Virus genome (UHGV): UHGV-0218015
Direction: 5' to 3' (one strand)
Origin: a virus
DNA length: 64,000 bases
The translations under genes and the position numbers were made by a program. Each line of letters begins with the position of its first letter. The stretch's first letter is position 1. The notes beneath the pieces were generated by a model. It had not been told where the DNA came from. It saw only the letters and a program-made list of their open reading frames with translations, and made no database searches. Positions 28,465 through 54,142 of this stretch are shown here, piece by piece.

Positions 28465-28490
28465 TTTGATATTTAGCTGTAAAATGACTG

Positions 28491-28538
28491 TCTACCGCCC
28501 GATTCTATGGGCGGTAGATGTTTTTTATTTTTTTTTGA
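28491..28538 (+). terminator. rho-independent terminator
   Basis: Stem TCTACCGCCC / GATTCTAT / GGGCGGTAGA followed by TGTTTTTTATTTTTTTTT. Confidence 0.8.
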
Positions 28539-28552
28539 TCTGGGAGGCTATA

Positions 28553-29113
28553 GTGGCCACATACGTACCTGATTTAAGTCTGTCCTCAGCCGAATTGGTG
28601 GTCGCTTTAATCAACCACGATAACGGTTCACGGTTGTCTCTAAGCGAAATTCGTATTAGCAACACTATGGCAAACCTGTCCCCGACTACGTCGCGTCGTA
28701 ACACACTGACAGAGATTACAAAAATCAGGAAACCTGATGGTGCTTCTGTAGTTGTTTATTACGACCGCTTGGATGCGGACAAAGTGTTAGCGTCCGAACC
28801 TATTTTGATTTCGTTAGATGGTACCGAAGACAACCTTCGTGACATTTTAGGTGTTGTAAATGAATTCTGCGGAACGAACTTACAACCCGAGGATTTACAT
28901 GCTTCAGATATCACTTTAGGTAACGATCCTATTGCTGTCAACGTTGCTGACGATTCTCCAGCGTGGGTGAATGCGTTTATGGTGACGTTATTTGATAAAA
29001 CTGAACGGGCATTAGCAAACGAAGAAGATGCAATCTTCTGTATTGGTGACGATGCTGTTCTTACATTTGAGGTTCCAGATGGAGACTCCGCTGAAGAAAA
29101 CCCGGCTACATGA
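28553..29113 (+). CDS. tail-fibre-associated accessory protein (about 186 aa; GTG start after GGGAGG), paralog of 35204..35716
   Basis: VATYVPDLSLSSAELVVALINHDNG...VVYYDRL parallels MEKFTPDLSLTSLNMVISLVNHD...QIYYNRL; sits directly upstream of the fibre gene. Confidence 0.5.
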   Translation: MATYVPDLSLSSAELVVALINHDNGSRLSLSEIRISNTMANLSPTTSRRNTLTEITKIRKPDGASVVVYYDRLDADKVLASEPILISLDGTEDNLRDILGVVNEFCGTNLQPEDLHASDITLGNDPIAVNVADDSPAWVNAFMVTLFDKTERALANEEDAIFCIGDDAVLTFEVPDGDSAEENPAT

Positions 29114-29318
29114 ACTTGACGGTTTTTCTGGTAATGGAGGCCAAAGCAAACGTTTATCAAGACTTAGTAAACCCAGATCATGAGAACGCGGAGTTGGGCA
29201 TCACTTTCACGTTAGAAGATGATGGATTAAAACCAGTATAATAATCCGCTTATAAAAATGTTGGGGGAGGTGTTTTACCTTCCCAGATCTTTTAGCTCCA
29301 GATAGAGAATTAAATATC

Positions 29319-32300
29319 ATGGCTAAAGCGGTAAAGAAAATACGTTTACACGACTTACATCCGTACACCGGGGATATCGGTGAAGGCGTTTTACTTTTTT
29401 CGAAAGACGAAAAAGATTATAAGTTACCAGTCCGCGAGATCGTTGCGGACATTGACACCGTCAGAAGTGCGGTTGCTGATGCACAAACGGCTGCGGCCAA
29501 ATCACAACAGTCCGCAACAGAAGCTACGAAAGCTAAAGATTTAGCAGAAACAGCGAAGCAACAGACCACCACTTTAGCTTCCACAGTTAATGAGCAAGCG
29601 GGAACCGTCGCCACTAAAACTGCGGAGGTTAACAAAAAACACGCTGAAGTTTTAGCAGCGAAAACTGCCGTAGATACTGTTTCACAATCAGTAAATGAGA
29701 AGGCTCAAGCTGTCGCCGCAAGCGAACAATCTGTGACAGCTGTAGCGGCTGATGTAACTAAGAAAGCAGAAACGGTTACGCAACGGGCCGGACAGGTTCA
29801 ACAGACCGCTACCAGTATCGCAAATACTGCGGCTTCAATTGAGGCCAGTAAGGGCGCGGTGGAGAAGGTTGCTGCGCAGGTTACGAAAGATAAAGAAAGC
29901 TCAGAAGGCGCAGCTACACGCTCGGAGTCAGCCGCTCTGCGTGCGGAGAAAATCGCTGCACAGGGTTTAGTTGACGCTAGTACGACCGGTAAAGGTATCG
30001 TTAAACTTAACAATACCCTGACTAGCGAATCCGTGACGGAGGCTGCCACACCGTCCACGGTTAAACAGCTGAACGACGAATTACAGTTAAAAGCCGATAA
30101 ACATTCGCCGAATTTTACGGGTAACCCGACATCACCAACGCCTCCAAAGGACTCGAATGACACGAGCATCTCCACAACGGCCTGGGTGCGTGCTGCTATC
30201 GCGGAATTGGTTGGTTCTTCACCTGAGACGTTAGATACCTTAGCGGAATTAGCTACGGCGTTAGGTAATGACCCTAACTTCGCAACAACGATTACTGAGA
30301 AACTTGCACAGAAGCAACCTATCAGTCCACTACTTACTGCTATTGCCGCAGTCACAACCGCAGCAAACAAGCTCCCTTATTTCACTGGCACTAATAAAGT
30401 CGGGTTAACTGACTTTACAGAAACCGCCAGAACCTTGTTAGCAAAAGGGACAACTGCGGATATCATCAATTTCTTGGGATTAAAAGCCACTGTAGATAAA
30501 GCGAACTCTGCGTTACAGAAAAACTCTAACGGTGCTGATATCCCCAATAAAGAAACCTTTGCTCGCAATATTGGTCTATCTCCTGATACCTATCTGCGTT
30601 TCCGTGGTGAAATGCCCGCAGATGCTGATATTAACACATTTGCTCCAGATGCCAATTACACAGGAACATGGTCCAAGTCGACATCAACAAACGCATCGAT
30701 AGCAAAACACTTCCCGGAAGACGGTGCGGTAGGTTATCTAGAAGTGTATAAAGCGGGCAACTACAGTGGAGCGCAACGTTTTACCTGCCGTAATGGTAAC
30801 GTGTACAACCGCATGTTGTCAGCCGCGTGGAACGGAACTAATGGCCCGTGGTCACCGTGGAGAATGGTAACTACAGGTGTACGCCCGTTATCTACATCGA
30901 TCGATCTGAACTCCTTAGGCGGCGCTGAGCACATGGGTAACTGGCGTAACTCGTCCAGTTCGTTAGCGGTGTTCGACAGACATTATCCTGAAGAGGGCGG
31001 TAATGCGCAAGGCGTATTAGAAGTCATGGAAGGCGGTCTTTATGGACGTTTACAACGTTACACCACTCGTCGTGGTACGATGTATGTCCGTGGTTTGACT
31101 GCGACTTGGGATTCGTCTAATCCGCAGTGGGAAGATTGGATTCAGGTTGGGTATCAGGTAGACGGTGCCTACTATAAGGGTAGCTTTAACGACTTAACTA
31201 AACCGGGTCGCTTTAGTGTTACCGGCGAGGCTACAGACGGTCCGTTAACAGACTCTGCTGGCGCAACCTTGCTAGGCGTTTGCGAAGTTACCTTACGCTT
31301 AGACGGTTCAGGTGTTGAACAAAATTATACCACATACGGTACAGGCGCAACTTCGAAAGGTCGCAAGTTCCAACGAATTCGTACAGGAAATGCCTGGAGC
31401 GAATGGCGAGAGATTTTCACATCCTATTCACTCCCGTTGGCTTTAGGGATCGGTGGGGTTGCTGCTAAGGTAGATCCGTTAGACTGGCAAACCTTCGACT
31501 TCGTTCCTGGCCAGATGATAAGTACACCATTGAATACCATGAAAAACATTCCTGCGGGAATGGATTGGGGTGTTATCGACGGTAACTTGGTTACTATTCT
31601 TGTAGGGGCGTCGGAGGACACCGGTACTGGCCGGAGTATGTTGGTCTGGCGTGGTACAGTGTCTACTGCTAACTATCGCTTCTTTGCTGTTCGCGTCGCT
31701 GGTGAAAAGGGTAAACGTACTATTACTAGCCGCCAGATGCCCGTATTGAATGCAGCGCATACGTGGGCAGAAAAACAGACCTTTGCAAAAGGGTTATCAG
31801 GTGAGTTAACAGGCAATGCTGCTACGGCAACGAAACTGAAAACAGCCCGTTTAATCGGCGGTGTAAGTTTCGACGGTAGCGGAGACATTAGCCTCCCTGG
31901 TGTAAACCAACAGGGTAATCAAAACACCTCTGGGAACGCGGGAACCGCAACCAAATTACAAACGGCTCGAAACATCAACGGTGTGAAATTTGATGGGTCT
32001 AGAGACATCAATATCAACACGTTGGTAGGACGTGGACGTGTTACTGCACTGACTGGATCAAACAAAGGTACACCCGGTATTCAGATGTACGAAGTTTACA
32101 ATAACGGTTATCCAACCGCTTATGGTAACTTACTGCATTTGGGCGGTTCTGCTGCGCTAGGCGAAGGGGAACTGTTAATCGGATGGTCGGGGACGAGCGG
32201 TGCGCACGCACCCGTTTATATTCGTAGTCGACGTGATACTGCTGATGCGCCGTGGTCAGATTGGGCACAAGTTTATACTGCCCGTGATAGCATTCCTGGT

Positions 32301-33758
32301 GTAAATGCCACAGGTAATCAGGATACTACCGGCAACGCCGCTACCGCGACGAAACTGAAAACCGCTCGCAGGATCGGAGGCGTTAGCTTTGACGGTACAG
32401 GTGATATCAATTTACCGGGCGTTAACCAGCAAGGCAACCAGAATACGACAGGTAATGCAGCGACCGCTACTAAGTTACAAACCGCACGTAAGATCGGCGG
32501 TGTGGTGTTCGATGGGACAAAAGACGTTAATCTTCCTGGTGTAAACCAAACCGGTAACCAATCGACTACGGGGAATGCGGCGACAGCGACTAAGCTACAG
32601 ACTGCTCGAAATATAGGTGGCGTAGCTTTTGATGGTACTAAAGACATCAGTTTACCTGGAGTAAACCAAACAGGGAATCAGTCGACCACCGGAAACGCAG
32701 CCACGGCAACAAAGTTGCAAACCGCAAGAACCATCAATGGTATTGCGTTTGATGGCACTAGAAATATATCGTTAGGGCCAGCCGAAATAGGTTGTCCGGC
32801 ATCACCTAGTGGTTGGTTAGAAACTGGCGCTAATGGCGGTGCAATAACTACAGCACAGCTAGTGACGTTATTGAAAAATAACGGCGCATTTACCACAAGA
32901 TCGTGGGTTGCTCGCTGTGCGTGGGCTTATGCCGCCAGTGCGTCCATACCTCACAGCGAGACGGGTTGTGGTGTCATTCCGTTAGCTGGGGCCGTTATAG
33001 AAGTCATTAGTAACGGCAACAGCACAAACAACTACACGATCCGTATAACGACCGCCACAACGACGAGCGTCGGCGGAGCACTCACTAATGCGGAGTTTAT
33101 CTACGTATTTAACGGCGATGGATACTCACCAGGCTGGCGTCGTGCTTACAATACGAGAAACAAGCCAACTGCTGCGGAAGTGGGCGCGTTACCGTCAGGG
33201 GGCGGTACTGTAGGCGGTGATTTAACCGTTAATGGTAAATTGGCCACTAAATACCCTGATTTTCGAATCGCTTACGGTACCTACGGTTTTATTTTACGTA
33301 ACGACGGTGCCAATACCTATTTCTTAGTAACCGACGCCGGACAAGCCGCAGCGGGTTCCTGGAACGGATTACGCCCGTTGTCTTTTAATAATTCTAACGG
33401 CCAAGTAAACTTTGGACATAACGTTACTGGCAACGGTAACGGTTCGTTTAACGACGTACAGATTCGTTCTGACCGTCGTAACAAACGTAATCTGGTGAAG
33501 CTGGATAAAGCTTTGGATCGGTTAGAGTTACTAACCGGTTATTTGTACGAAATTCAGCATCCTGATGACGGTTGGCAGACTTCTGTAGGTCTAATTGCTC
33601 AGGACGCATTAGAAGCGTTACCTGAACTTGTGTCAGAGGACGACGATGCCATTTCAGGCGAAAAACGTTTACGTCTAAATTACAATGGCGTTATTGCGCT
33701 GTTAGTAGAGGGTATGAAGTCTCTTCGCCGAGAGCTTAAAGAACTCAAGGGGAATTAA
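29319..33758 (+). CDS. long tail fibre protein (1479 aa) with tandem fibre repeats and C-terminal intramolecular chaperone (peptidase S74) domain
   Basis: About six 38-aa repeats GNAATATKLxTAR-IGGV-FDG--DI-LPGVNQ-GNQ; C-terminal SDRRNKRNL...GLIAQDALEALPELV...LNYNGVIALLVEGMKSLRRELKELK matches the S74 autoproteolytic chaperone of endosialidase-type fibres. Confidence 0.85.
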   Translation: MAKAVKKIRLHDLHPYTGDIGEGVLLFSKDEKDYKLPVREIVADIDTVRSAVADAQTAAAKSQQSATEATKAKDLAETAKQQTTTLASTVNEQAGTVATKTAEVNKKHAEVLAAKTAVDTVSQSVNEKAQAVAASEQSVTAVAADVTKKAETVTQRAGQVQQTATSIANTAASIEASKGAVEKVAAQVTKDKESSEGAATRSESAALRAEKIAAQGLVDASTTGKGIVKLNNTLTSESVTEAATPSTVKQLNDELQLKADKHSPNFTGNPTSPTPPKDSNDTSISTTAWVRAAIAELVGSSPETLDTLAELATALGNDPNFATTITEKLAQKQPISPLLTAIAAVTTAANKLPYFTGTNKVGLTDFTETARTLLAKGTTADIINFLGLKATVDKANSALQKNSNGADIPNKETFARNIGLSPDTYLRFRGEMPADADINTFAPDANYTGTWSKSTSTNASIAKHFPEDGAVGYLEVYKAGNYSGAQRFTCRNGNVYNRMLSAAWNGTNGPWSPWRMVTTGVRPLSTSIDLNSLGGAEHMGNWRNSSSSLAVFDRHYPEEGGNAQGVLEVMEGGLYGRLQRYTTRRGTMYVRGLTATWDSSNPQWEDWIQVGYQVDGAYYKGSFNDLTKPGRFSVTGEATDGPLTDSAGATLLGVCEVTLRLDGSGVEQNYTTYGTGATSKGRKFQRIRTGNAWSEWREIFTSYSLPLALGIGGVAAKVDPLDWQTFDFVPGQMISTPLNTMKNIPAGMDWGVIDGNLVTILVGASEDTGTGRSMLVWRGTVSTANYRFFAVRVAGEKGKRTITSRQMPVLNAAHTWAEKQTFAKGLSGELTGNAATATKLKTARLIGGVSFDGSGDISLPGVNQQGNQNTSGNAGTATKLQTARNINGVKFDGSRDININTLVGRGRVTALTGSNKGTPGIQMYEVYNNGYPTAYGNLLHLGGSAALGEGELLIGWSGTSGAHAPVYIRSRRDTADAPWSDWAQVYTARDSIPGVNATGNQDTTGNAATATKLKTARRIGGVSFDGTGDINLPGVNQQGNQNTTGNAATATKLQTARKIGGVVFDGTKDVNLPGVNQTGNQSTTGNAATATKLQTARNIGGVAFDGTKDISLPGVNQTGNQSTTGNAATATKLQTARTINGIAFDGTRNISLGPAEIGCPASPSGWLETGANGGAITTAQLVTLLKNNGAFTTRSWVARCAWAYAASASIPHSETGCGVIPLAGAVIEVISNGNSTNNYTIRITTATTTSVGGALTNAEFIYVFNGDGYSPGWRRAYNTRNKPTAAEVGALPSGGGTVGGDLTVNGKLATKYPDFRIAYGTYGFILRNDGANTYFLVTDAGQAAAGSWNGLRPLSFNNSNGQVNFGHNVTGNGNGSFNDVQIRSDRRNKRNLVKLDKALDRLELLTGYLYEIQHPDDGWQTSVGLIAQDALEALPELVSEDDDAISGEKRLRLNYNGVIALLVEGMKSLRRELKELKGN
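31790..32770 (+). repeat. in-frame tandem coding repeats (about 114 nt units, about 6 copies) inside the tail fibre gene
   Basis: Repeated ACGAAACTGAAAAC/ACTAAGTTACAAACCGC... units encoding NAATATKLQTAR-GGV-FDG. Confidence 0.8.
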
Positions 33759-33799: not shown

Positions 33800-34345
33800 A
33801 TGGGGGTAGCATCCGGCTGGGTTGGAAGCTCAGCAAAGGCAGTAACCGGTCAGGAGTGGATGAGTGTGGCAGGTAATAAGCTTAAACTGAGCACGCCATT
33901 TAACATGTCGCAGATGGTCGGGCGTAGCGTAGAGGATCTTAAACTCGTTGTAGGCCGATCAACCTATGTTGTTTTGGTGCAGGCTACGAACACGCAGTGG
34001 GTTCCTATTACAAATACGTATGGGGGGTATTCGAACAACTCTACAACAACGGGTGCTGGTTCTACAGTATCGAATCGTGTGCAAACACAAAATGCGGCCG
34101 GTTCGGTGTCAGGTTCGATCTTGGGTTGTAGCGTCACACATCTTAGCCAAGTACAAAATACTGGTATTATCTACATGGCCCTAACCAATGGACCAAATCA
34201 GAATATTACGCTTTCGTTTAACGGAACGAAGATTACTTTTCTACCGTACTCCTACAGTAACGGCGTCCGGCGCTATGAGGCTAAGACGGCAACCAACTGG
34301 TTATTTAATCAGAACGGTGCAACAATTTCAATAAGTGTAGTCTAA
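33800..34345 (+). CDS. tail-fibre-module protein (181 aa), paralog of 34599..35105; possible distal adhesin
   Basis: N-terminus MGVASGWVGSSAKAVTGQEWMSVAGNKLKLSTPFNMSQMVGRS shared with the downstream paralog. Confidence 0.5.
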   Translation: MGVASGWVGSSAKAVTGQEWMSVAGNKLKLSTPFNMSQMVGRSVEDLKLVVGRSTYVVLVQATNTQWVPITNTYGGYSNNSTTTGAGSTVSNRVQTQNAAGSVSGSILGCSVTHLSQVQNTGIIYMALTNGPNQNITLSFNGTKITFLPYSYSNGVRRYEAKTATNWLFNQNGATISISVV

Positions 34346-34355
34346 GGACAGAAAG

Positions 34356-34586
34356 ATGTTAAGAAAAGTTTTACTGGGTTTCGCATTGCTTACAGTAAGT
34401 GGATGTCAACAACTACCCGAACCTGTATGTTACGGCACAGCTAAGCTGGGTAATGAAGAGACTACGATCAATATTTTCGACGTAAAAAAGCAGGGCAGAT
34501 ACACACTTTATAAAGCTGATCATCATTATAATTGGCGTTGGGTTGGGCGTGGTGCTTTCGATTCAATAACATGTAGAAAATCTTAA
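34356..34586 (+). CDS. small lipoprotein (76 aa), candidate Llp-like superinfection-exclusion or receptor-blocking lipoprotein
   Basis: Signal peptide with lipobox LTVSGC (MLRKVLLGFALLTVSG-C); located inside the fibre module. Confidence 0.55.
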   Translation: MLRKVLLGFALLTVSGCQQLPEPVCYGTAKLGNEETTINIFDVKKQGRYTLYKADHHYNWRWVGRGAFDSITCRKS

Positions 34587-34598
34587 CAGGAGATCGCG

Positions 34599-35105
34599 AT
34601 GGGGGGGGTAACCGGTTCGTGGGTCGGTTCTTCGGCCAAGAACGAAACGGGCGAACAATGGATGAGCGCTGCTGGTAGTAAATTAGGATTGGGTAGACCT
34701 TTTATGATGAGTCAAATGGTGGGACGATCTATGGGCTGTAAAATTGCAACCGCTGCATATAGCGATTCTTTAGGTAAGAAATGGGGCGCAGTAGGACCAA
34801 GCTGGCCGTTAAACCAGAAAAATCAGGGAACCATTCAAAACGCGGGTAACTGCGGGGTGGGAACTTTAGTAGGTATTGAGTTACAGTTAACGACGATAGT
34901 TGCCAACGCAAAGCCTACTTTAGCGGTTTACTTACAAGGAGGCAGAGCCTCTAACATTACCGTAAATTTAGGTGGTAACACCTGCGCGCTGGCCTATCAG
35001 CAGGTTATTAACGGACAGCATTATTACTGGACTAATAACATCAGCGCTGCGTTCCAAAACGTGATGAAATCGACAGGCGCACTGCGTGATTTGAGAATTA
35101 GCTAA
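34599..35105 (+). CDS. tail-fibre-module protein (168 aa), paralog of 33800..34345; start codon fused to a G8 tract
   Basis: MGGVTGSWVGSSAKNETGEQWMSAAGSKL...MSQMVGRS; ATG followed by GGGGGGG (34601-34608). Confidence 0.5.
   Translation: MGGVTGSWVGSSAKNETGEQWMSAAGSKLGLGRPFMMSQMVGRSMGCKIATAAYSDSLGKKWGAVGPSWPLNQKNQGTIQNAGNCGVGTLVGIELQLTTIVANAKPTLAVYLQGGRASNITVNLGGNTCALAYQQVINGQHYYWTNNISAAFQNVMKSTGALRDLRIS
34601..34608. repeat. G8 homopolymer inside the start of gene 34599
   Basis: ATGGGGGGGGTAACC read directly. Confidence 0.9.
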
Positions 35106-35139: not shown

Positions 35140-35149
35140 GGGGGGGGGG
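35140..35149. repeat. G10 homopolymer in the intergenic region upstream of gene 35204
   Basis: AATCGTGGGGGGGGGGTGAATG read directly. Confidence 0.9.
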
Positions 35150-35719: not shown

Positions 35720-37840
35720 ATGAGTCAGCCAATTGGAAAGAAACGTATCCATGAACTCGACAATTTCTCTGGCGATCTCAAAGGTGCGTTAGTTCTTCTT
35801 TCTAAGGAAGAAAAAGAATATAAAATTGATATTGCAAAACTTCAGGGCACGACGGAGCCGGAGTATTACTTCGTGATTCCTATAGCCGGGCAATCTAATG
35901 CGATGAGTTATGGTGAAGGGTTGCCTCTACCGGCGACGTTGGACGCTCCCGATCCGCGAATTAAACAGATGGCGCGCCGTGCGAAGGTAACGCCTAATGG
36001 GGCTGATTGTAAATATAACGACGTCATTCCAGCGGATCACTGTCTGCACGACGTGCAAGATATGTCCAAATACTCGCATCCCAATGCCAATTTGAGCAAA
36101 GGTGAATACGGATGTGTGGGTCAAGGTCTACATATCGCGAAGCGTCTTCTCCCGTATATTCCTAAGAACGCCGGTATCTTACTAGTACCCTGCGCACGCG
36201 GCGGTTCTGCTTTCACGGGTGGTGCAGAAGGTACCTTCGATGAAGCCACAGGAGCCACTGAGTCGTCAATGCTATGGGGGGTGGAGAAACCGCTTTATAA
36301 AGATTTAGTTAGCCGGACCAAAAAAGCTCTAGAAGTTAATCCTAAAAATAAACTCTTGGCTGTAGTGTGGATGCAGGGAGAGTATGATCTGACTAAAGTA
36401 CAATACGCACAACAACCAGCGTTATTTAACGCAATGGTAGAGCGTTTCCGAACTGATCTCTCTGACCATCTCTCTCAGATGCCCGAGTACGACACCGCCG
36501 AAGTACCATGGATCTGCGGGGACACTACCTATTATTGGAAGGAAAAATATCCTGCCCAATATGAAACCGTATACGGTAATTATCGTAACAATGAACAAAA
36601 AAATATCTTTTTTGTTCCATTCATGTACGACGATAATGGCCAACGTGTACCGACTAATGATCCCACTGACGATCCTGATATCACTGGTGCGGCCTATTAC
36701 GGTGCTGCCTCCCGTACTGTTAAAAACTGGACGTCTGAAACAAGGAATAGCCATTTCAGTTCTTGGGCACGACGCGGTATTATCTCAGAGAGAATAGCTG
36801 CCGAGATATTATCAAGAACAGCGATTGGTGCAATGTTCCTGACGAAGAACGACACTAAGAGCTCCAAAGACAATAAGAATGTGGTAAGAAGCTATACCCC
36901 ATTAGTAGAGTCTGTGGGTTATAACGGACGTCGTGGGGATGGTTCCCTGAAAGGGCAAGGTTGGAACAATATCGTTGATTGTAACGTAACCGTGCAAGAT
37001 TCTGAGGATGGAAACGGGCATTTCGTCGAATTAAGAAAGGCTGTAAAGATGAAACCTTGGAATGTAACTAAGTCAATGACATCTGCTGCGGACATGATAC
37101 GTTACGGTGGACGTCTGACCGTTACTTTTAGACTAAAAGGTGATTTAGCAGCAGATCGTTTCGGATTAGGACTTTATTGGCGTATTTCCGCGTCCGACCT
37201 ACCTTCTGGTACTACATTTGCTGACGCTGGTGTGGCTGAGACGAACCCGTACCTAATGTCTTTTTTCTTACAGACCGACGCTACGAATCTTAATCTGATG
37301 CATCATAAAAAGCAAAATGCGAAATTAGGAACTTTTGGTGCGTACGATAATAACTGGCATACGCTTGAAATCATTTATCCTGGTGCCAATAAAACCACAG
37401 TCACACCTGTGCTGGACGGTACGAATGGTACTCCATTTGATCTGGCGAACAGTCCAGCTAAGACCGATTTGAACGAATTGGTTCTGACGGATATTACGAA
37501 AGTTACTGCCTATGATATCGATATTTCTAAGTTTGAGATCTCGGTCAATCGTGATTCTGGTAGCATAGTGTTATCTGAGGAAGATGTGTCGTCTTATGTG
37601 TATTTCCCACCCACCAACCGTGGCGGCCAACTTACTATTCCTGATCTAGAATATAGTGTGGGCAGAAATATTCAGATCGTGGCAAATAAGGCTGGTAAGA
37701 TCACCGTTAAACCGGAAAATTCAAACGTTCTCATCACTCCAAAGAGTGGGACAGAAGGTCTTGCCAAACCCATTGATACCAATGAAAGTATTACGCTAAT
37801 GCAGATTGGTTCCGATGGTAAAAGCTGGGTAGTTATTTAA
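35720..37840 (+). CDS. tailspike/tail fibre (706 aa) with putative SASA/SGNH-type carbohydrate esterase domain
   Basis: N-terminus MSQPIGKKRIHELDNFSGDLKGALVLLSKEEKEYK parallels the 1479-aa fibre N-terminus; FVIPIAGQSNAMSYGEG resembles the GQSN(M) active-site motif of sialate O-acetylesterase-like esterases. Confidence 0.6.
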   Translation: MSQPIGKKRIHELDNFSGDLKGALVLLSKEEKEYKIDIAKLQGTTEPEYYFVIPIAGQSNAMSYGEGLPLPATLDAPDPRIKQMARRAKVTPNGADCKYNDVIPADHCLHDVQDMSKYSHPNANLSKGEYGCVGQGLHIAKRLLPYIPKNAGILLVPCARGGSAFTGGAEGTFDEATGATESSMLWGVEKPLYKDLVSRTKKALEVNPKNKLLAVVWMQGEYDLTKVQYAQQPALFNAMVERFRTDLSDHLSQMPEYDTAEVPWICGDTTYYWKEKYPAQYETVYGNYRNNEQKNIFFVPFMYDDNGQRVPTNDPTDDPDITGAAYYGAASRTVKNWTSETRNSHFSSWARRGIISERIAAEILSRTAIGAMFLTKNDTKSSKDNKNVVRSYTPLVESVGYNGRRGDGSLKGQGWNNIVDCNVTVQDSEDGNGHFVELRKAVKMKPWNVTKSMTSAADMIRYGGRLTVTFRLKGDLAADRFGLGLYWRISASDLPSGTTFADAGVAETNPYLMSFFLQTDATNLNLMHHKKQNAKLGTFGAYDNNWHTLEIIYPGANKTTVTPVLDGTNGTPFDLANSPAKTDLNELVLTDITKVTAYDIDISKFEISVNRDSGSIVLSEEDVSSYVYFPPTNRGGQLTIPDLEYSVGRNIQIVANKAGKITVKPENSNVLITPKSGTEGLAKPIDTNESITLMQIGSDGKSWVVI

Positions 37841-37845
37841 TTTAA

Positions 37846-37889
37846 ACCGTAGGATGGACTTAGTCCATCCTACGGTTTTTATATTTTTT
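37846..37889 (+). terminator. rho-independent terminator
   Basis: Long palindromic stem CCGTAGGATGGAC...GTCCATCCTACGG followed by TTTTTATATTTTTT. Confidence 0.85.
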
Positions 37890-37963: not shown

Positions 37964-38815
37964 ATGTCACACCCGTATTATCTCCCGCGCATTCTAGCAA
38001 ATAGGGACCCCAGTTATTACTACGAACAAACAAAGGGATTTGTTGAACGACTTTATATTCGTGAATTTAATACCGATGAAATGACAGATGGCCAGTATCT
38101 AGAGTATCTAAAAGACCTTTACGCTTTTTCAAAATCGAATAAAGGTAGGTTTGGACGTTACTCAGTCATTAGAGATGATGAATATCGTCATTTAGCTAAG
38201 CCTGTTACTTACCCTATTGTTACACGCGCCTATACATCGGATAGGCAATATATCGCTGAGCTAAAATTTCCATTGCGGATAGACGGGCCCCAAATTAGCG
38301 CTATAGAAGTAGAGATTCAACCAATTGCTGAAGACTATATTGAAGACTACTTCAAGAAAGCTAAAGACGTACTCGAGGAGGGTTTAAGCTACTCTGAAGA
38401 AGGAACGATCTGTCTTCTCTCGTTACTCACGAAGACTTATATCACAGCAAATTTCCGTATCTCCGATTCCAGTAACTACAATACACTTACCCCCTCTAAA
38501 ACAAAACCTGTTTATTGGGACGATCGGCTAGTCGACAGACAACGCTGGCTTACTATCTTAGATAGAGTAAAATTCGAGCCACCTAAACACACCGAAGACG
38601 ATTTTATTTTATTGCACAACTTCGAACCAATTTATATTCCAACGCATTTTGATCAAGCCTTACGTCATCGGTTGAAGTATGTGTTGGAATTACGGTACGG
38701 GAAGATAAATGGGCTGACCTGTTCTGGTGAATTGGGTGAAGAAGAACGCGAGAAGATAAAAATCGTGTATGATAAGTTGGTTGAAGATTACATTAAGAAG
38801 GAAGGGCAATTATGA
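37964..38815 (+). CDS. hypothetical protein (283 aa)
   Basis: AAAAGGAGGATTAG-ATG RBS downstream of promoter motif. Confidence 0.55.
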   Translation: MSHPYYLPRILANRDPSYYYEQTKGFVERLYIREFNTDEMTDGQYLEYLKDLYAFSKSNKGRFGRYSVIRDDEYRHLAKPVTYPIVTRAYTSDRQYIAELKFPLRIDGPQISAIEVEIQPIAEDYIEDYFKKAKDVLEEGLSYSEEGTICLLSLLTKTYITANFRISDSSNYNTLTPSKTKPVYWDDRLVDRQRWLTILDRVKFEPPKHTEDDFILLHNFEPIYIPTHFDQALRHRLKYVLELRYGKINGLTCSGELGEEEREKIKIVYDKLVEDYIKKEGQL

Positions 38816-51387: not shown

Positions 51388-51935
51388 TCATCTTCTCCTT
51401 TAACTAAACCTAGCTCAATTAACAATTCAAAATCGATTTGGCGAAATTTGTTATCAAAACCAGAATCCCAATCGATGTGTAATCCTTGTCGTTCTTCATC
51501 GGTAAGTTCAGGATAAATTAAATCATGGAACGCTTCACGTTCCTCGTAAAATCCATCGATAGTAGAATCTGGATTCCGCATTGCGTAAATCGTGATGCCC
51601 GGAAAGGATAATCCTAATGCTGTTATAGATTCGACGCTTGGTTCTTGCAAGGCCCTGCGTAATAGCACGATTTTATGTCGTGGAAAATCTAGTACACGTT
51701 GTTCAAACCCAGGATTCCGTTTCTCAATTTCTGTAACTGAAAGATCGGTGAGTTCTGTGCAATACATTGGGATAACTACAGTTACTCCGTGGCGAATTAA
51801 TAATCGTTTAACATCGTCAGTGAAGTCTTCACCATTAATTTGCACATAACAACCAAACAATTTTGTAGTTTCTAAAAATTTTTCCAGAAAACGGAATTTA
51901 CGCTTCGTAATATTGTGGATCAGAATTGGCTTCAT
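51363..51935 (-). CDS. hypothetical protein (190 aa) in rSAM/Cys-rich operon
   Basis: - strand ORF overlapping the SPASM rSAM gene end by 38 nt. Confidence 0.5.
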   Translation of the reverse strand: MKPILIHNITKRKFRFLEKFLETTKLFGCYVQINGEDFTDDVKRLLIRHGVTVVIPMYCTELTDLSVTEIEKRNPGFEQRVLDFPRHKIVLLRRALQEPSVESITALGLSFPGITIYAMRNPDSTIDGFYEEREAFHDLIYPELTDEERQGLHIDWDSGFDNKFRQIDFELLIELGLVKGEDECLLLTKA

Positions 51936-53220
51936 CTTTGGTTTCTCTCAATTGTTTTTCTTTCTGGGTACGTTCACGTACGCAACGAGGGCAATAACAC
52001 ATGCTATTGTCATGAAAATCTTTCACTGACGTCGTGCCCATTTTCTGTTTCCAATATTCCGCAACCATCAACTTTGCAGTTGTCCAGCCGCATTGACGGC
52101 GTTCAGCGTGATAAGCTTTGCGATCTTCTAGCGTCCCTTCTCCATTCTCGTAAGATGCAGCCGCACAACTACCACAAGCGTGCTTCATTGGACAACCTAA
52201 ACAGGTTTCAGGATAGTTGGTGTATTGCGTCTGAATCTCTTCCAGCAATTTCCCGTCATCTAAGCTAACGAATTCCCGGCCAACTAATTCAAATACGGCA
52301 GAACGTGATGTTACGGTTGACATGAAACGGTTACAACCGAAGATCTTACGATCAAATCCTAAGCAGGTCATGTGTGTTAACGTACCGCAGAACGGGCGTA
52401 AACGTTCTGGATTCAAACGTACAGTATCGTTATACAATAACTGATCACGCCAGTTTGGTTCCCAGATAGTATCAAAATCTAACCCGTCTGGAATGATGTG
52501 CGACAAAGTGTTACGTGGGTTGGTGTGTAAGCCCTTCTCAACCCAATAATCAACCACGTCCATCATCTGCAATGCGATTGAAGTAGCCATGCTCCGTGGC
52601 ATAATGTCTTCGAAGGTTACGTTGCCAGAAATAGTTCCGCCGCCAGTAATATCAATTAATGATTTCATTCCAGCAGCATAGAACGGTAACGTTTCCAACG
52701 TAAAGGTCGCTTTTACACCAAGTTCTGCAATACCGACTTCTTTTAAGTAGTTATAGCCCCGCACAGCGGCCTCGTAAGATCCTTCACGAGTTGTTGTAAA
52801 AATCCGGTACTTATCGTGCGATTCGGGCAATCCATCAATAGACACGCCGATAGAAAGCCTGTCTTTCCAACGTTCAATAATTTCTCTATTCAAAGGTCTA
52901 TCTAACAACGTTCCGTTAGTAGAGATGCTAAACATAAACGGCCGATTATGTTTTTCGCATAACTCTTCTGCGGTTTCAAATGCCGCCTTTAATAGTTTAG
53001 GCTGCATAAACGGCTCACCACCGATGATATCGATAACGACCTCGATGTTTGTCAGATCTTTATCTCGTTCAAAACAAGCGTGTAGAAAATCAACAATATC
53101 CGCCGCTTTGTTATTACGGGGATACTTACGTTCGTAACAATACTCACAGTCCAAGTTACACGATAAATTTGTAACAATTTGATAAGTCAGTTGTTTTGGA
53201 TAACTATTTTCTTGACTCAT
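51898..53220 (-). CDS. radical SAM enzyme with C-terminal SPASM-like auxiliary Cys cluster domain (440 aa), putative peptide-modifying maturase
   Basis: N-terminal CNLDCEYC (C-x3-C-x2-C), GGEP SAM-binding motif, C-terminal CGTLTHMTC...GC and CLGCPMKHACGSC (C-x2-C-x5-C-x2-C) clusters. Confidence 0.8.
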   Translation of the reverse strand: MSQENSYPKQLTYQIVTNLSCNLDCEYCYERKYPRNNKAADIVDFLHACFERDKDLTNIEVVIDIIGGEPFMQPKLLKAAFETAEELCEKHNRPFMFSISTNGTLLDRPLNREIIERWKDRLSIGVSIDGLPESHDKYRIFTTTREGSYEAAVRGYNYLKEVGIAELGVKATFTLETLPFYAAGMKSLIDITGGGTISGNVTFEDIMPRSMATSIALQMMDVVDYWVEKGLHTNPRNTLSHIIPDGLDFDTIWEPNWRDQLLYNDTVRLNPERLRPFCGTLTHMTCLGFDRKIFGCNRFMSTVTSRSAVFELVGREFVSLDDGKLLEEIQTQYTNYPETCLGCPMKHACGSCAAASYENGEGTLEDRKAYHAERRQCGWTTAKLMVAEYWKQKMGTTSVKDFHDNSMCYCPRCVRERTQKEKQLRETKDEANSDPQYYEA

Positions 53221-54142
53221 TTTCCGCCCCTCTATTACGCTCTGCCATCACTACACGACGAATGTACTCGTAAGCTTCTACACCTATTGAGGAGGCTAGT
53301 TGGTTACACCCTGCTTTTGTAGTTATTGGTACATTTTTAAGTTGGTTTTCTTCCCCGTCCGCGTCTATCCTGAGACTTTCGCTACAGACATTACAAGCAT
53401 GATCGAAGAATCTGTTTACAATAAAACCGCAGTCTCTAGAATTTAGAACGTTTAATCTTTCTATATTCTCCTGAATTCTAAAATACCCGTAAATAAAGTT
53501 CATAACGTGATCGGGAGATAACGGTTTTGGCATGTTTTTATCTAGTAATAAGGACATGGAACGAAAACCGTAATGATAGATAGCAGTATGTAATTGAATG
53601 ATATCTTCATGCCATCTTTTGTTGGATAAATTCTCCCTCGTAACAACAGCCCAAGTGTTAACATTATTCAAGCTGTAAATTACTTCTAACGCTTCATGAC
53701 AATTATCATCAATAAAGCGCTTAAAAGGCCGTTCGGAAAGATTAAACCCATCGATGCTAACATATATAGCATCGAATTGTTTTAACAACGGTAGATGCGA
53801 TTTACGCATTTTTAAACCGTTCGTGAACATCTGGTGTTTGAGTTCAGGACGGATCGTTTTTAATTCGTCGACAAACGCCTCAATCTTTCGAGTTGCCAGT
53901 AGCGGTTCACCGCCAGTCCACTGAATTTCAGTAATGGTTGGGTTAGACGCCAACGCTTTCAAAATTCGTTCACGTTGAAACTCTCGCGGAGAATCTTCAC
54001 GATGCATGTAATAGGCTCCGCCGCAGAAGCTACAGTCCAGATTACATTTGGATGTAGCAACTACGGACAATACGGTGGGTTTATTGTATAAACGATTCGA
54101 TAACCTTGGCTCTACGTCGGTTGTCATTGCAGGTGAGTCCAT
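53204..54142 (-). CDS. radical SAM enzyme (312 aa), paralog of 56177..57091
   Basis: SKCNLDCSFCGG (C-x3-C-x2-C), QWTGGEPLL; C-terminal C-x12-C-x2-C; three nucleotide-identical patches with the paralog. Confidence 0.8.
   Translation of the reverse strand: MDSPAMTTDVEPRLSNRLYNKPTVLSVVATSKCNLDCSFCGGAYYMHREDSPREFQRERILKALASNPTITEIQWTGGEPLLATRKIEAFVDELKTIRPELKHQMFTNGLKMRKSHLPLLKQFDAIYVSIDGFNLSERPFKRFIDDNCHEALEVIYSLNNVNTWAVVTRENLSNKRWHEDIIQLHTAIYHYGFRSMSLLLDKNMPKPLSPDHVMNFIYGYFRIQENIERLNVLNSRDCGFIVNRFFDHACNVCSESLRIDADGEENQLKNVPITTKAGCNQLASSIGVEAYEYIRRVVMAERNRGAENESRK
53457..53539. repeat. 83-nt patch 100% identical to 56421..56503 (between radical SAM paralogs)
   Basis: CTTTCTATATTCTCCTGAATTCTAAAATACCCGTAAATAAAGTTCATAACGTGATCGGGAGATAACGGTTTTGGCATGTTTTT present in both genes; further identical patches 53782..53818 = 56747..56783 and 54002..54055 = 56966..57019. 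Confidence 0.85.

What the first reader, a model, noticed from the sequence alone, without database searches (positions are those of the whole stretch)
35720..37840. Second fibre/tailspike shares the N-terminal anchor with the long fibre but carries an esterase-like (GQSN) domain
The N-termini MAKAVKKIRLHDLHPYTGDIGEGVLLFSKDEKDYK and MSQPIGKKRIHELDNFSGDLKGALVLLSKEEKEYK are clearly homologous, implying both proteins dock to the same tail adaptor. The 706-aa protein then has IAGQSNAMSYGEG, resembling the catalytic-serine motif of SASA/SGNH-type carbohydrate esterases, so it is a candidate receptor-modifying enzyme such as an O-antigen or capsule deacetylase.
Basis: partly seen in the sequence, partly recalled or inferred. 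Interest (0 to 1): 0.5.

Follow-up and report, generated by a model that had tools for sequence, protein, structure and literature searches.

The report
Tail-anchored sialic-acid esterase of jumbo phage
A giant phage of enteric bacteria has fused a known sialic-acid de-acetylating enzyme, with its sugar-binding domain, to the short N-terminal plug that its tail fibres carry, so the enzyme probably sits on the virion rather than serving as a bacterial nutrient-release factor.

Summary
ORF 35720-37840 (+) encodes 706 aa. Its first ~41 residues are homologous to the start of the 1479-aa long fibre, and it contains GQSN.

Residues 45-364 are 57% identical to E. coli NanS (PDB 3pt5), a 9-O-acetyl-sialic-acid esterase, and all four NanS sequence blocks are kept (Ser59, His345). 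Residues 400-610 match the lectin-like domain of prophage NanS-p (6yp6). An extra 95-aa beta-sandwich at the C-terminus resembles phage fibre and spike domains.

The window comes from a ~225-kb jumbo phage related to SPN3US. The N-terminal plug is the start of SPN3US gp123, a virion protein not listed among SPN3US head proteins. The plug is rare: 15 clusters in 1.84 billion representatives. It carries different payloads in different phages. Close relatives have a 206-aa protein, or nothing, in the esterase slot.

Best reading: an accessory, tail-displayed sialate O-acetylesterase plus lectin, in which the capsid-binding DUF1737 of NanS-p is replaced by a tail plug. The substrate is probably O-acetylated sialoglycans, mucin more likely than a host capsule, but this is inferred. 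I rate it a new variant of a known kind, of moderate interest.

The parts
35720..37840 (+). 706-aa ORF made of a plug, a NanS-type esterase, a lectin-like jelly roll and a C-terminal beta-sandwich.
   Evidence: Identical or 89-98% identical orthologues occur in >20 public contigs with the same synteny.
35720..35851 (+). N-terminal plug (aa 1-44), homologous to the starts of the long fibre and of SPN3US gp123.
   Evidence: pLDDT is below 30 in the monomer model.
35852..36814 (+). SASA/NanS-type esterase domain (aa 45-365). Ser59 codon is 35894-35896; His345 codon is 36752-36754.
   Evidence: 57% identical to 3pt5. Blocks GQSNA 57-61, RGGSAF 160-165, MQGEYD 218-223 and R342-N-SHFS correspond to the 3PT5 blocks listed in PMC10792757. 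These residues are invariant in 67 homologues. Foldseek TM 0.88.
36902..37552 (+). Lectin-like jelly-roll domain (aa 395-611; Pfam DUF6645).
   Evidence: Pfam E 2e-30. 6yp6 matches at E 2e-38 by sequence and TM 0.90 by fold. It also resembles the sialic-acid-binding domain of V. cholerae sialidase, 2w68, TM 0.72-0.75.
37553..37837 (+). C-terminal ~95-aa beta-sandwich domain, absent from E. coli Stx-phage NanS-p.
35204..35716 (+). DUF7941 gene (170 aa), a paralogue of SPN3US gp122. It lies directly upstream of the esterase gene, 3 nt before its ATG.
37844..37878 (+). Intrinsic-terminator-like hairpin (16-bp stem followed by a T run) 4 nt after the stop codon. It closes the fibre module.
   Evidence: Homology with relative L021 resumes exactly here.
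29319..33758 (+). Long fibre (1479 aa) carrying the paralogous plug at aa 1-41 (29319-29441).
28553..29113 (+). DUF7941 gene of the first module. The mechanical ORF starts at 28466, but a terminator-like hairpin at 28489-28520 and the length of the orthologue suggest a later start.
29079..29232 (+). Relics of a deleted gp123-like gene (first 19 codons, 29079-29135) and a deleted gp124-like gene (last 28 codons, 29149-29232).
   Evidence: Intact copies of both genes are present in relative L022.

Best explanation
The gene encodes a NanS/NanS-p-type sialate O-acetylesterase whose virion-attachment end has been exchanged.

**Domains**
- Residues 45-365 form an SGNH/SASA esterase with Ser59 as nucleophile and His345 as base. 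Block V has no Asp, as in NanS.
- Residues 395-611 form the lectin-like jelly roll that accompanies the esterase in prophage NanS-p.
- Residues 612-706 form an additional beta-sandwich.
- Stx-phage NanS-p starts with DUF1737, which binds the capsid in phi24B. This protein instead starts with the ~41-residue plug found at the N-terminus of the long fibre and of SPN3US gp123.

**Inferred mechanism**
- The plug mounts the enzyme on the tail or baseplate of a ~225-kb SPN3US-like jumbo phage of enteric bacteria. It is an optional payload in a slot that other relatives fill with other proteins or leave empty.
- On the virion, the lectin domain binds sialoglycans and the esterase removes 7/8/9-O-acetyl groups.
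- The most likely substrate is O-acetylated sialic acid on intestinal mucin. It would work in the manner of a receptor-destroying enzyme, letting the phage engage and disengage mucus.
- Less likely, the substrate is an O-acetylated sialic-acid capsule or O-antigen of the host.

**Status of each step**
- Shown: domain identities, catalytic residues, plug homology, and payload swapping.
- Inferred: location on the virion, enzymatic activity, and substrate.
For: **Enzyme identity**
- Pfam SASA and DUF6645 both hit.
- 3pt5 matches at E 3e-122 with 57% identity; 6yp6 matches at E 2e-38.
- The predicted structure matches 3pt5 at TM 0.88 and 6yp6 at TM 0.90.
- The four NanS blocks, including Ser59 and His345, are invariant in 67 homologues.
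- Against orthologues, dN/dS is 0.32 in the esterase domain and 0.43 overall.

**Family function**
- NanS and NanS-p de-O-acetylate free and mucin-bound sialic acids (PMC8319020).
- The C-terminal domain of vb_24B_21 is a proposed carbohydrate-binding module (PMC10462455). Three of its four aromatic site residues map to F481, Y486 and F516 (alignment).

**Virion display**
- phi24B NanS-p (gp84) is a capsid decoration protein attached through DUF1737 (bioRxiv 10.64898/2026.04.10.717836).
- The esterase core occurs with many different N-termini, including a lambda Stf N-terminal domain in P0006.

**Plug**
- It is shared with the long fibre and with SPN3US gp123 and Asesino gp140.
- SPN3US gp123 and gp124 were detected in virions by mass spectrometry and are not flagged as head proteins.
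- Only 15 N-terminal matches exist among 1.84 billion representative proteins, with payloads ranging from 55 to 1494 aa.

**Slot variability**
- Relative L021 has a 206-aa payload in the slot. The E. coli 98232 element has none.

**Expression**
- The gene is tightly coupled to the upstream DUF7941 gene and is followed by a strong terminator.
Against: - There are no proteomic or structural data for this phage, so virion location rests on homology of a 41-residue segment.
- The plug is unstructured in the monomer model. The Ser59 loop (residues 59-68) has pLDDT below 50, so active-site geometry was not verified.
- The fourth aromatic residue of the phi24B lectin site (F611) aligns to a gap.
- In phi24B the catalytic and lectin domains appear to be cleaved off the capsid anchor, so stable display is not guaranteed.
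- DUF7941 paralogues are head proteins in SPN3US. gp122, the counterpart of the upstream gene, was not detected in virions.
- Nothing tested here distinguishes mucin from bacterial sialoglycans as the substrate.
Confidence: 0.6

Rival explanations
1. This is the first reader's version: a true receptor-modifying tail enzyme. It would strip O-acetyl groups from a bacterial surface polysaccharide that contains sialic acid (for example O-acetylated K1 or K92 polysialic acid, or sialylated O-antigens). That would expose or create the receptor, or allow access to the outer membrane.
For: - It has the same tail plug as the long fibre.
- Tailspike SGNH/SASA esterases that deacetylate capsules or O-antigens are known or predicted in other phages (PMC11126041 and PMC11058221).
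- E. coli K1 polysialic acid is 7/9-O-acetylated (PMC8319020).
- A related phage genome sits in a urinary E. coli isolate.
Against: - The same esterase-lectin core is widespread in prophages of Salmonella and of Stx-phage-carrying E. coli. To my knowledge these hosts, such as E. coli O157, mostly lack surface sialic acid.
- Close relatives infect without it, since the slot can be empty or hold another payload.
- One orthologue is labelled Shigella sonnei. From my own knowledge, its O-antigen has no sialic acid.
- No activity of NanS-p on polysialic acid was found in the papers read.
Confidence: 0.2
2. The protein is a soluble enzyme released at lysis and is not part of the virion. It would play the classical NanS-p role of making mucin-derived Neu5,9Ac2 usable as a carbon source for surviving or carrier-state hosts.
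For: - NanS-p supports growth on Neu5,9Ac2 in EHEC (PMC8319020).
- Related jumbo-phage genomes are recorded as circular 'plasmids' in E. coli and Enterobacter assemblies. This suggests a carrier state in which a host benefit could be selected.
Against: - The N-terminus is a structural plug shared only with fibre-type proteins.
- The gene lies inside the fibre module, between a DUF7941 gene and the module's terminator.
- Even the prophage enzyme turns out to be virion-associated in phi24B.
Confidence: 0.12
3. The protein is a head decoration protein, as in phi24B, attached to the capsid or to head-located DUF7941 paralogues.
For: - phi24B gp84 decorates capsid hexons.
- DUF7941 ('paralog family B') proteins are head proteins in SPN3US.
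Against: - No DUF1737 domain is present.
- The plug is shared with a T4-like long tail fibre and with gp123, which is not flagged 'Head' in the SPN3US mass-spectrometry table.
Confidence: 0.05

Closest known systems
NanS-p (933W L0105; phi24B vb_24B_21/gp84), the prophage sialate O-acetylesterase of Stx phages
   Same: It has the same esterase core and lectin-like jelly roll. tblastn identity is ~50-53% over aa 41-622, and PHROG 143 matches at E 1e-251. The SGNH block variants are the same. An N-terminal virion-attachment module precedes the conserved PEYY(F/Y)VIP..GQSN start of the core.
   Different: The N-terminal DUF1737 capsid binder is replaced by the SPN3US-type tail plug. An extra 95-aa C-terminal domain is present. 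The gene lies in the fibre module of a jumbo phage rather than downstream of stx or the lysis genes of a lambdoid prophage.
E. coli NanS (YjhS), PDB 3pt5
   Same: 57% identity over 320 aa. It shares the catalytic Ser/His, the MQGE(F/Y)D block and the absence of a Block V Asp.
   Different: NanS is a single-domain protein of about 320-340 aa (3pt5 chain: 337 aa). It has no plug, no lectin domain and no C-terminal domain.
Salmonella prophage 'sialate O-acetylesterase' proteins of 680-780 aa, and P0006 (lambda Stf N-terminal domain plus esterase)
   Same: They match the query from about aa 45 to its C-terminus at ~52-62% identity, including the extra C-terminal domain. Their N-termini vary. Some are encoded next to tail-fibre genes.
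   Different: They have different N-terminal modules and are found in temperate lambdoid or Mu-like prophages.
SPN3US gp123 / Asesino gp140 (small 'tail fiber protein', PHROG 9017)
   Same: The first ~41 residues are homologous (44-54% identity). Each is preceded by a DUF7941 gene.
   Different: Its payload is a 110-aa domain followed by a separate 1005-aa tail protein (gp124). It carries no enzyme.
Tailspike or tail-fibre SGNH/SASA esterases (Acinetobacter phage Aristophanes gp41; predicted SASA tail fibres of SH-Ab 15497, DMU1 and Phab24) and, as a functional analogue, viral haemagglutinin-esterases
   Same: An esterase of the SGNH superfamily is displayed on a virion to de-O-acetylate a glycan. 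HE proteins also pair a sialate O-acetylesterase with a lectin domain (the HE comparison comes from my own knowledge).
   Different: Homology with these does not extend beyond the superfamily or SASA level. Those tailspikes are trimeric spike proteins that act on host capsule. HE proteins belong to eukaryotic viruses.

Membership tests
SASA / SGNH-hydrolase esterases (Pfam PF03629) | Profile match above the curated cut-off. | tested here: met
   45.7 bits against a cut-off of 24.8, E 8e-12.
SASA / SGNH-hydrolase esterases (Pfam PF03629) | Block I GQSN with the nucleophilic Ser and the oxyanion Gln; Block II Gly; Block III (H)QGE; Block V His. | tested here: met
   GQSNA 57-61, RGGSAF 160-165, MQGEYD 218-223 and R342-N-S-H345-FS are all present. 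They align with the 3PT5 blocks and are invariant in 67 homologues.
SASA / SGNH-hydrolase esterases (Pfam PF03629) | SGNH alpha/beta/alpha fold. | tested here: met
   The AF2 model matches 3pt5 at TM 0.88 and E 1e-35, and also matches 2apj and 1zmb. Caveat: the loop at residues 59-68 has pLDDT below 50.
SASA / SGNH-hydrolase esterases (Pfam PF03629) | Esterase activity. | not testable with these tools
   Requires an enzyme assay.
NanS-p (prophage sialate O-acetylesterase) | NanS-homologous catalytic domain followed by a lectin-like jelly roll (DUF6645). | tested here: met
NanS-p (prophage sialate O-acetylesterase) | N-terminal DUF1737 (capsid-binding) domain. | tested here: not met
   No PF08410 hit in this protein, whereas 20 of 67 homologues have one. 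The N-terminus is the SPN3US-type plug instead.
NanS-p (prophage sialate O-acetylesterase) | Encoded in the late region of a lambdoid (Stx) prophage. | tested here: not met
   The window is an SPN3US-like jumbo phage, with ~71% nucleotide identity in conserved genes, and the gene lies in its fibre module.
NanS-p (prophage sialate O-acetylesterase) | De-O-acetylation of Neu5,9Ac2 or mucin sialic acids. | not testable with these tools
   Inferred only from 50-57% identity to characterised enzymes.
Phage tail fibre / tailspike | N-terminal virion-attachment module shared with known tail proteins. | tested here: met
   The plug is homologous to those of the long fibre and of SPN3US gp123, a virion protein not flagged as head.
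Phage tail fibre / tailspike | Elongated shaft, or a beta-helix or triple-stranded spike body. | tested here: not met
   The AF2 monomer shows three globular domains joined by linkers. There are no fibre repeats, no Pfam fibre domains and no S74 chaperone. Oligomeric state was not tested.
Phage tail fibre / tailspike | Physical presence on the tail. | not testable with these tools
   Needs virion proteomics or EM.

The most novel reading that the evidence does not exclude
A bacteriophage carries on its tail the functional equivalent of an animal-virus haemagglutinin-esterase. This is a lectin plus sialate O-acetylesterase that binds and then destroys O-acetyl-sialic-acid decoys in intestinal mucus, tuning how the phage moves through mucus to reach its host. 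NanS-p esterases in general would then be virion glycan-interaction modules with interchangeable capsid or tail anchors, rather than lysogenic-conversion nutrient genes.
Probability: 0.3. Interest if true: 0.7.

Novelty: new variant of a known kind. Interest (0 to 1): 0.48.

Why it matters
NanS-p esterases have been treated as prophage 'morons' that feed EHEC on mucin sialic acid. A 2026 preprint shows that the phi24B enzyme is a capsid decoration protein.

Here the same esterase-lectin cassette sits on a tail-fibre plug in a jumbo phage. No integrase or lysogeny genes were looked for in this window. Related cassettes sit on a lambda Stf N-terminal domain and on other N-termini in Salmonella prophages. 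Together these support the view that the cassette is a virion-displayed module that moves between attachment sites.

The system is also experimentally convenient. Natural relatives with the esterase, with another payload, or with an empty slot could be compared to test what a phage-borne sialate esterase does in mucus.

Finally, it defines a rare ~41-residue docking plug with swappable payloads. This may be useful for understanding, or engineering, how SPN3US-like phages recognise their hosts.

Tried and rejected
- Megablast of the esterase region against 50,697 phage records found nothing. No deposited phage in that collection has the plug-esterase fusion.
- NCBIfam gave no hit for the esterase, the DUF7941 gene, the 283-aa neighbour or the L021 payload.
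- A PDB sequence search with SPN3US gp123 and with DUF7941-2 found no solved relative. The docking partner of the plug therefore could not be identified.
- The papers by Rangarajan 2011 and Rangel 2016 are not held. The catalytic blocks were taken from PMC10792757 and PMC9487903 instead.
- My first estimate of ~65% identity to NanS was wrong; counting gave 57%.
- I considered strict one-to-one pairing of each plug with its own DUF7941 gene and rejected it. In L022 one DUF7941 gene precedes gp123, gp124 and the long fibre. In the window, DUF7941-1 abuts the long fibre only because gp123 and gp124 were deleted.
- A regex search for a shared promoter motif upstream of both modules was uninformative.
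Full report
**1. Observation**

The ORF at 35720-37840 (+) encodes 706 aa. The long fibre at 29319-33758 (+) encodes 1479 aa. The quoted N-termini and the IAGQSNAMSYGEG string (aa 55-67) are exact.

The two N-termini align residue 1 to residue 1 over 41 positions, with 14 identities and 73% positives, pairwise E 1e-6. Three further results put this beyond chance:
- Both N-termini match the first ~41 residues of SPN3US gp123 and Asesino gp140 better than they match each other: 44-59% identity, E 1e-9 to 1e-11.
- An HMM of the segment, searched against all six frames of the window, finds only these two genes plus one truncated relic.
- Each of the two genes stands in a module headed by a DUF7941 gene.

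**2. The replicon**

Conserved genes in the window (virion RNA polymerase subunit, virion structural proteins) are ~71% identical at the DNA level to the jumbo phages Erwinia phiEaH2, Asesino and Stratton, and to Salmonella SPN3US. No deposited phage matches the fibre region closely.

The identical 706-aa protein occurs on at least 24 public contigs, up to 225-227 kb long, from metagenomes and sequencing runs. Orthologues that are 89-98% identical sit in the same gene order. One orthologue is labelled Shigella sonnei in NCBI.

Related genomes are deposited as circular 'plasmids' of E. coli 98232 (221,873 bp, urine) and Enterobacter ludwigii (222,441 bp). The gp38-like adhesin next door is 69% identical to adhesins of phi24B-type Stx phages. 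The host is therefore very probably Escherichia, Shigella or a close relative.

**3. Anatomy of the protein**

- **aa 1-44, the plug.** It is unstructured in a monomer AlphaFold model, with pLDDT below 30.
- **aa 45-365, the esterase.** Pfam SASA hits. It is 57% identical to E. coli O157 NanS, 3pt5, E 3e-122. The model superposes on 3pt5 with TM 0.88.
 - The four sequence blocks listed for 3PT5 (GQSNA, RGGSAF, MQGEFD, R-x-SHFS; PMC10792757) are present as GQSNA 57-61, RGGSAF 160-165, MQGEYD 218-223 and R342-N-S-H345-F-S.
 - These residues are invariant across 67 homologues.
 - NanS has no Block V Asp, and a main-chain oxygen takes the acid role (PMC9487903 and PMC10792757). A missing Asp is therefore the family norm and not evidence against catalysis.
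 - Caveat: the loop around Ser59 has low model confidence, so geometry was not checked.
- **aa 366-394, a low-confidence linker.**
- **aa 395-611, the lectin-like jelly roll.** Pfam DUF6645 hits at E 2e-30. It matches the crystallised C-terminal domain of phi24B NanS-p, 6yp6, at E 2e-38 and TM 0.90. It also resembles the sialic-acid-binding module of V. cholerae sialidase, 2w68, TM 0.72-0.75.
 - The four aromatic residues proposed for carbohydrate binding in vb_24B_21 are Y510, Y515, Y540 and F611 (PMC10462455).
 - Through the alignment, three of them map to F481, Y486 and F516. The fourth falls in a one-residue gap.
- **aa 612-706, an extra beta-sandwich.** A separate model has pLDDT 83.
 - It is present in the jumbo-phage and Salmonella-prophage homologues and missing from E. 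coli Stx-phage NanS-p.
 - Its role, protein docking or glycan binding, is unresolved.

Against two orthologues, dN/dS is 0.43 overall, 0.32 in the esterase domain and 0.56-0.59 in the lectin domain. dS is only ~0.12-0.14, so power is limited.

**4. The plug is a general docking module with exchangeable payloads**

In SPN3US the order is DUF7941 (gp122), then gp123 (plug plus a 110-aa domain), then gp124 (1005 aa).

By mass spectrometry, gp123 (16.5 kDa) and gp124 (113.7 kDa) are virion proteins that are not marked 'Head', whereas gp122 was not detected (PMC5694885 text and Supplementary Table 1). I matched the gene numbers to the ORFs by size and position.

A profile of the two window plugs, searched against 1.84 billion representative proteins, finds 18 hits. 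Fifteen of them carry the match at residues 1 to about 42. Their total lengths include:
- 154-156 aa (gp123 type);
- 188, 259 and 273 aa;
- 706 aa (this esterase);
- 710 aa (Ig-like repeats plus a propeller-like region);
- 1494 aa (long fibre).

In IMG/VR relative L021 (224.8 kb) the esterase slot holds a 206-aa plug-bearing protein. DNA homology with the window breaks inside the 3' end of the DUF7941 gene (35634) and resumes at the terminator (37849). In the E. coli 98232 element the slot is empty apart from a 3' relic of that 206-aa gene. The esterase is thus an accessory payload that was swapped in as a unit together with its plug.

**5. The esterase core is itself a mobile module with exchangeable anchors**

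Among 120 homologues, the conserved core always begins at PEYY(F/Y)VIP(V/I)AGQSN. It is preceded by one of the following:
- DUF1737 (Stx phages and some Salmonella prophages);
- several unrelated N-termini found in Salmonella homologues;
- very short leaders;
- a lambda Stf N-terminal domain (P0006, 917 aa);
- the SPN3US plug.

A 2026 preprint shows that phi24B NanS-p (gp84) is a capsid decoration protein and that DUF1737 is its capsid-binding domain. It also reports signs of proteolytic release of the catalytic part. The window protein therefore looks like the same cassette re-addressed from capsid to tail.

**6. Mechanism**

Shown:
- The protein is a NanS/NanS-p homologue with an intact catalytic apparatus and a lectin domain.
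- Its N-terminus is the fibre plug.
- It is the last gene of the fibre module. It is coupled to the DUF7941 gene (3-nt gap, GGAG ribosome-binding site) and followed by a 16-bp-stem terminator.

Inferred:
- It is mounted on the tail or baseplate.
- It de-O-acetylates sialic acids at O7/8/9, as NanS and NanS-p do on free and mucin-bound sialic acids (PMC8319020).

I favour mucin sialoglycans over a host capsule or O-antigen as the target, for two reasons. First, the cassette is common in prophages of Salmonella and of Stx-phage-carrying E. coli; to my knowledge these hosts, such as E. coli O157, mostly lack surface sialic acid. Second, close relatives of this phage manage without the cassette. 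This preference is not tested. O-acetylated K1 polysialic acid remains a plausible alternative.

Pairing a lectin with a sialate O-acetylesterase on a virion recalls the haemagglutinin-esterases of influenza C and some coronaviruses. That is an analogy from my own knowledge and not a claim of homology.

**7. Comparison and novelty**

The enzyme family is known, and NCBI already names an orthologue 'sialate O-acetylesterase'. Tail-borne SGNH/SASA esterases are known or predicted in other phages.

What I did not find reported, in the phage records searched or in the literature searches, is a NanS-p-type esterase-lectin on a tail-fibre plug of a jumbo phage. I rate it a new variant of a known kind, of moderate interest.

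**8.

The homologous anchor and the SASA-type esterase are both correct. Three points need revision: the 'fibre/tailspike' label, the guess of a generic O-antigen or capsule target, and the catalytic-triad criterion. Docking of both proteins to the same adaptor remains untested.

Noticed in passing
window 29079-29232: Two gene scars lie between DUF7941-1 and the long fibre. The first is the opening 19 codons of a gp123-like plug gene (METPLKKTRLHELDGFSG...). The second is the last 28 codons of a gp124-like 1005-aa tail protein. Relative L022 still has both genes intact upstream of its long fibre, so this phage lost gp123 and gp124 by an internal deletion.
   Followed up: yes
window 35140-35149 (intergenic, ~55 nt upstream of DUF7941-2): A poly-G tract of 10 G varies between 8 and 13 G among nine other contigs that encode the identical esterase and have identical flanks (L012-L020). 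It may be a hypermutable tract affecting expression of the DUF7941-esterase pair, or a homopolymer assembly error. Similar G-tract and C-tract hairpins occur in other intergenic spots (50053; upstream of the long fibre in L022 and L024).
   Followed up: partly
window 37964-38815 (+): This 283-aa ORF has no Pfam, PHROG or NCBIfam hit. It is present directly after the esterase terminator in all esterase-bearing relatives examined. It is absent from L021 and from the E. coli 98232 element, which lack the esterase, so it appears to co-vary with the esterase.
   Followed up: partly
window 33800-35105 (+): Two Gp38_N-type adhesin genes (181 and 168 aa) flank a Cor-like superinfection-exclusion lipoprotein gene (34356-34586, PHROG 1119). 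They lie downstream of a long fibre that itself ends in a Peptidase_S74 intramolecular chaperone domain. A Cor-like exclusion gene sits inside the fibre module of a jumbo phage, which is unexpected. The first adhesin is 69% identical to adhesins of phi24B-type Stx phages. The gene upstream of DUF7941-2 differs between contigs that share the identical esterase (124-aa versus 168-aa product).
   Followed up: partly
NZ_CP173450.1 (L026) and NZ_CP134650.1: Genomes related to this jumbo phage are deposited as circular 'plasmids' of 221.9 and 222.4 kb, in a complete E. coli genome (urine, Egypt) and an Enterobacter ludwigii record (gull cloaca). This hints at a carrier or pseudolysogenic state for SPN3US-like phages.
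   Followed up: partly
window 28466-28552: The mechanically listed TTG start of DUF7941-1 lies upstream of a strong terminator-like hairpin (28489-28520), and the orthologue in L003 is 188 aa. The real start is probably near 28550.
   Followed up: partly
window 51898-54142 (-): Two adjacent radical-SAM-domain genes (440 and 312 aa, both PHROG 1802) are present.
   Followed up: no
L010/L011 (Salmonella Mu-like prophage) and L007 (lambdoid prophage end): Homologous esterase-lectin proteins sit immediately after tail-fibre and tail-fibre-assembly genes (P0074, 778 aa) or are fused to a lambda Stf N-terminal domain (P0006, 917 aa). Several recurring N-terminal domains of ~90-120 aa in the Salmonella homologues have no Pfam family and may be further virion anchors.
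   Followed up: partly
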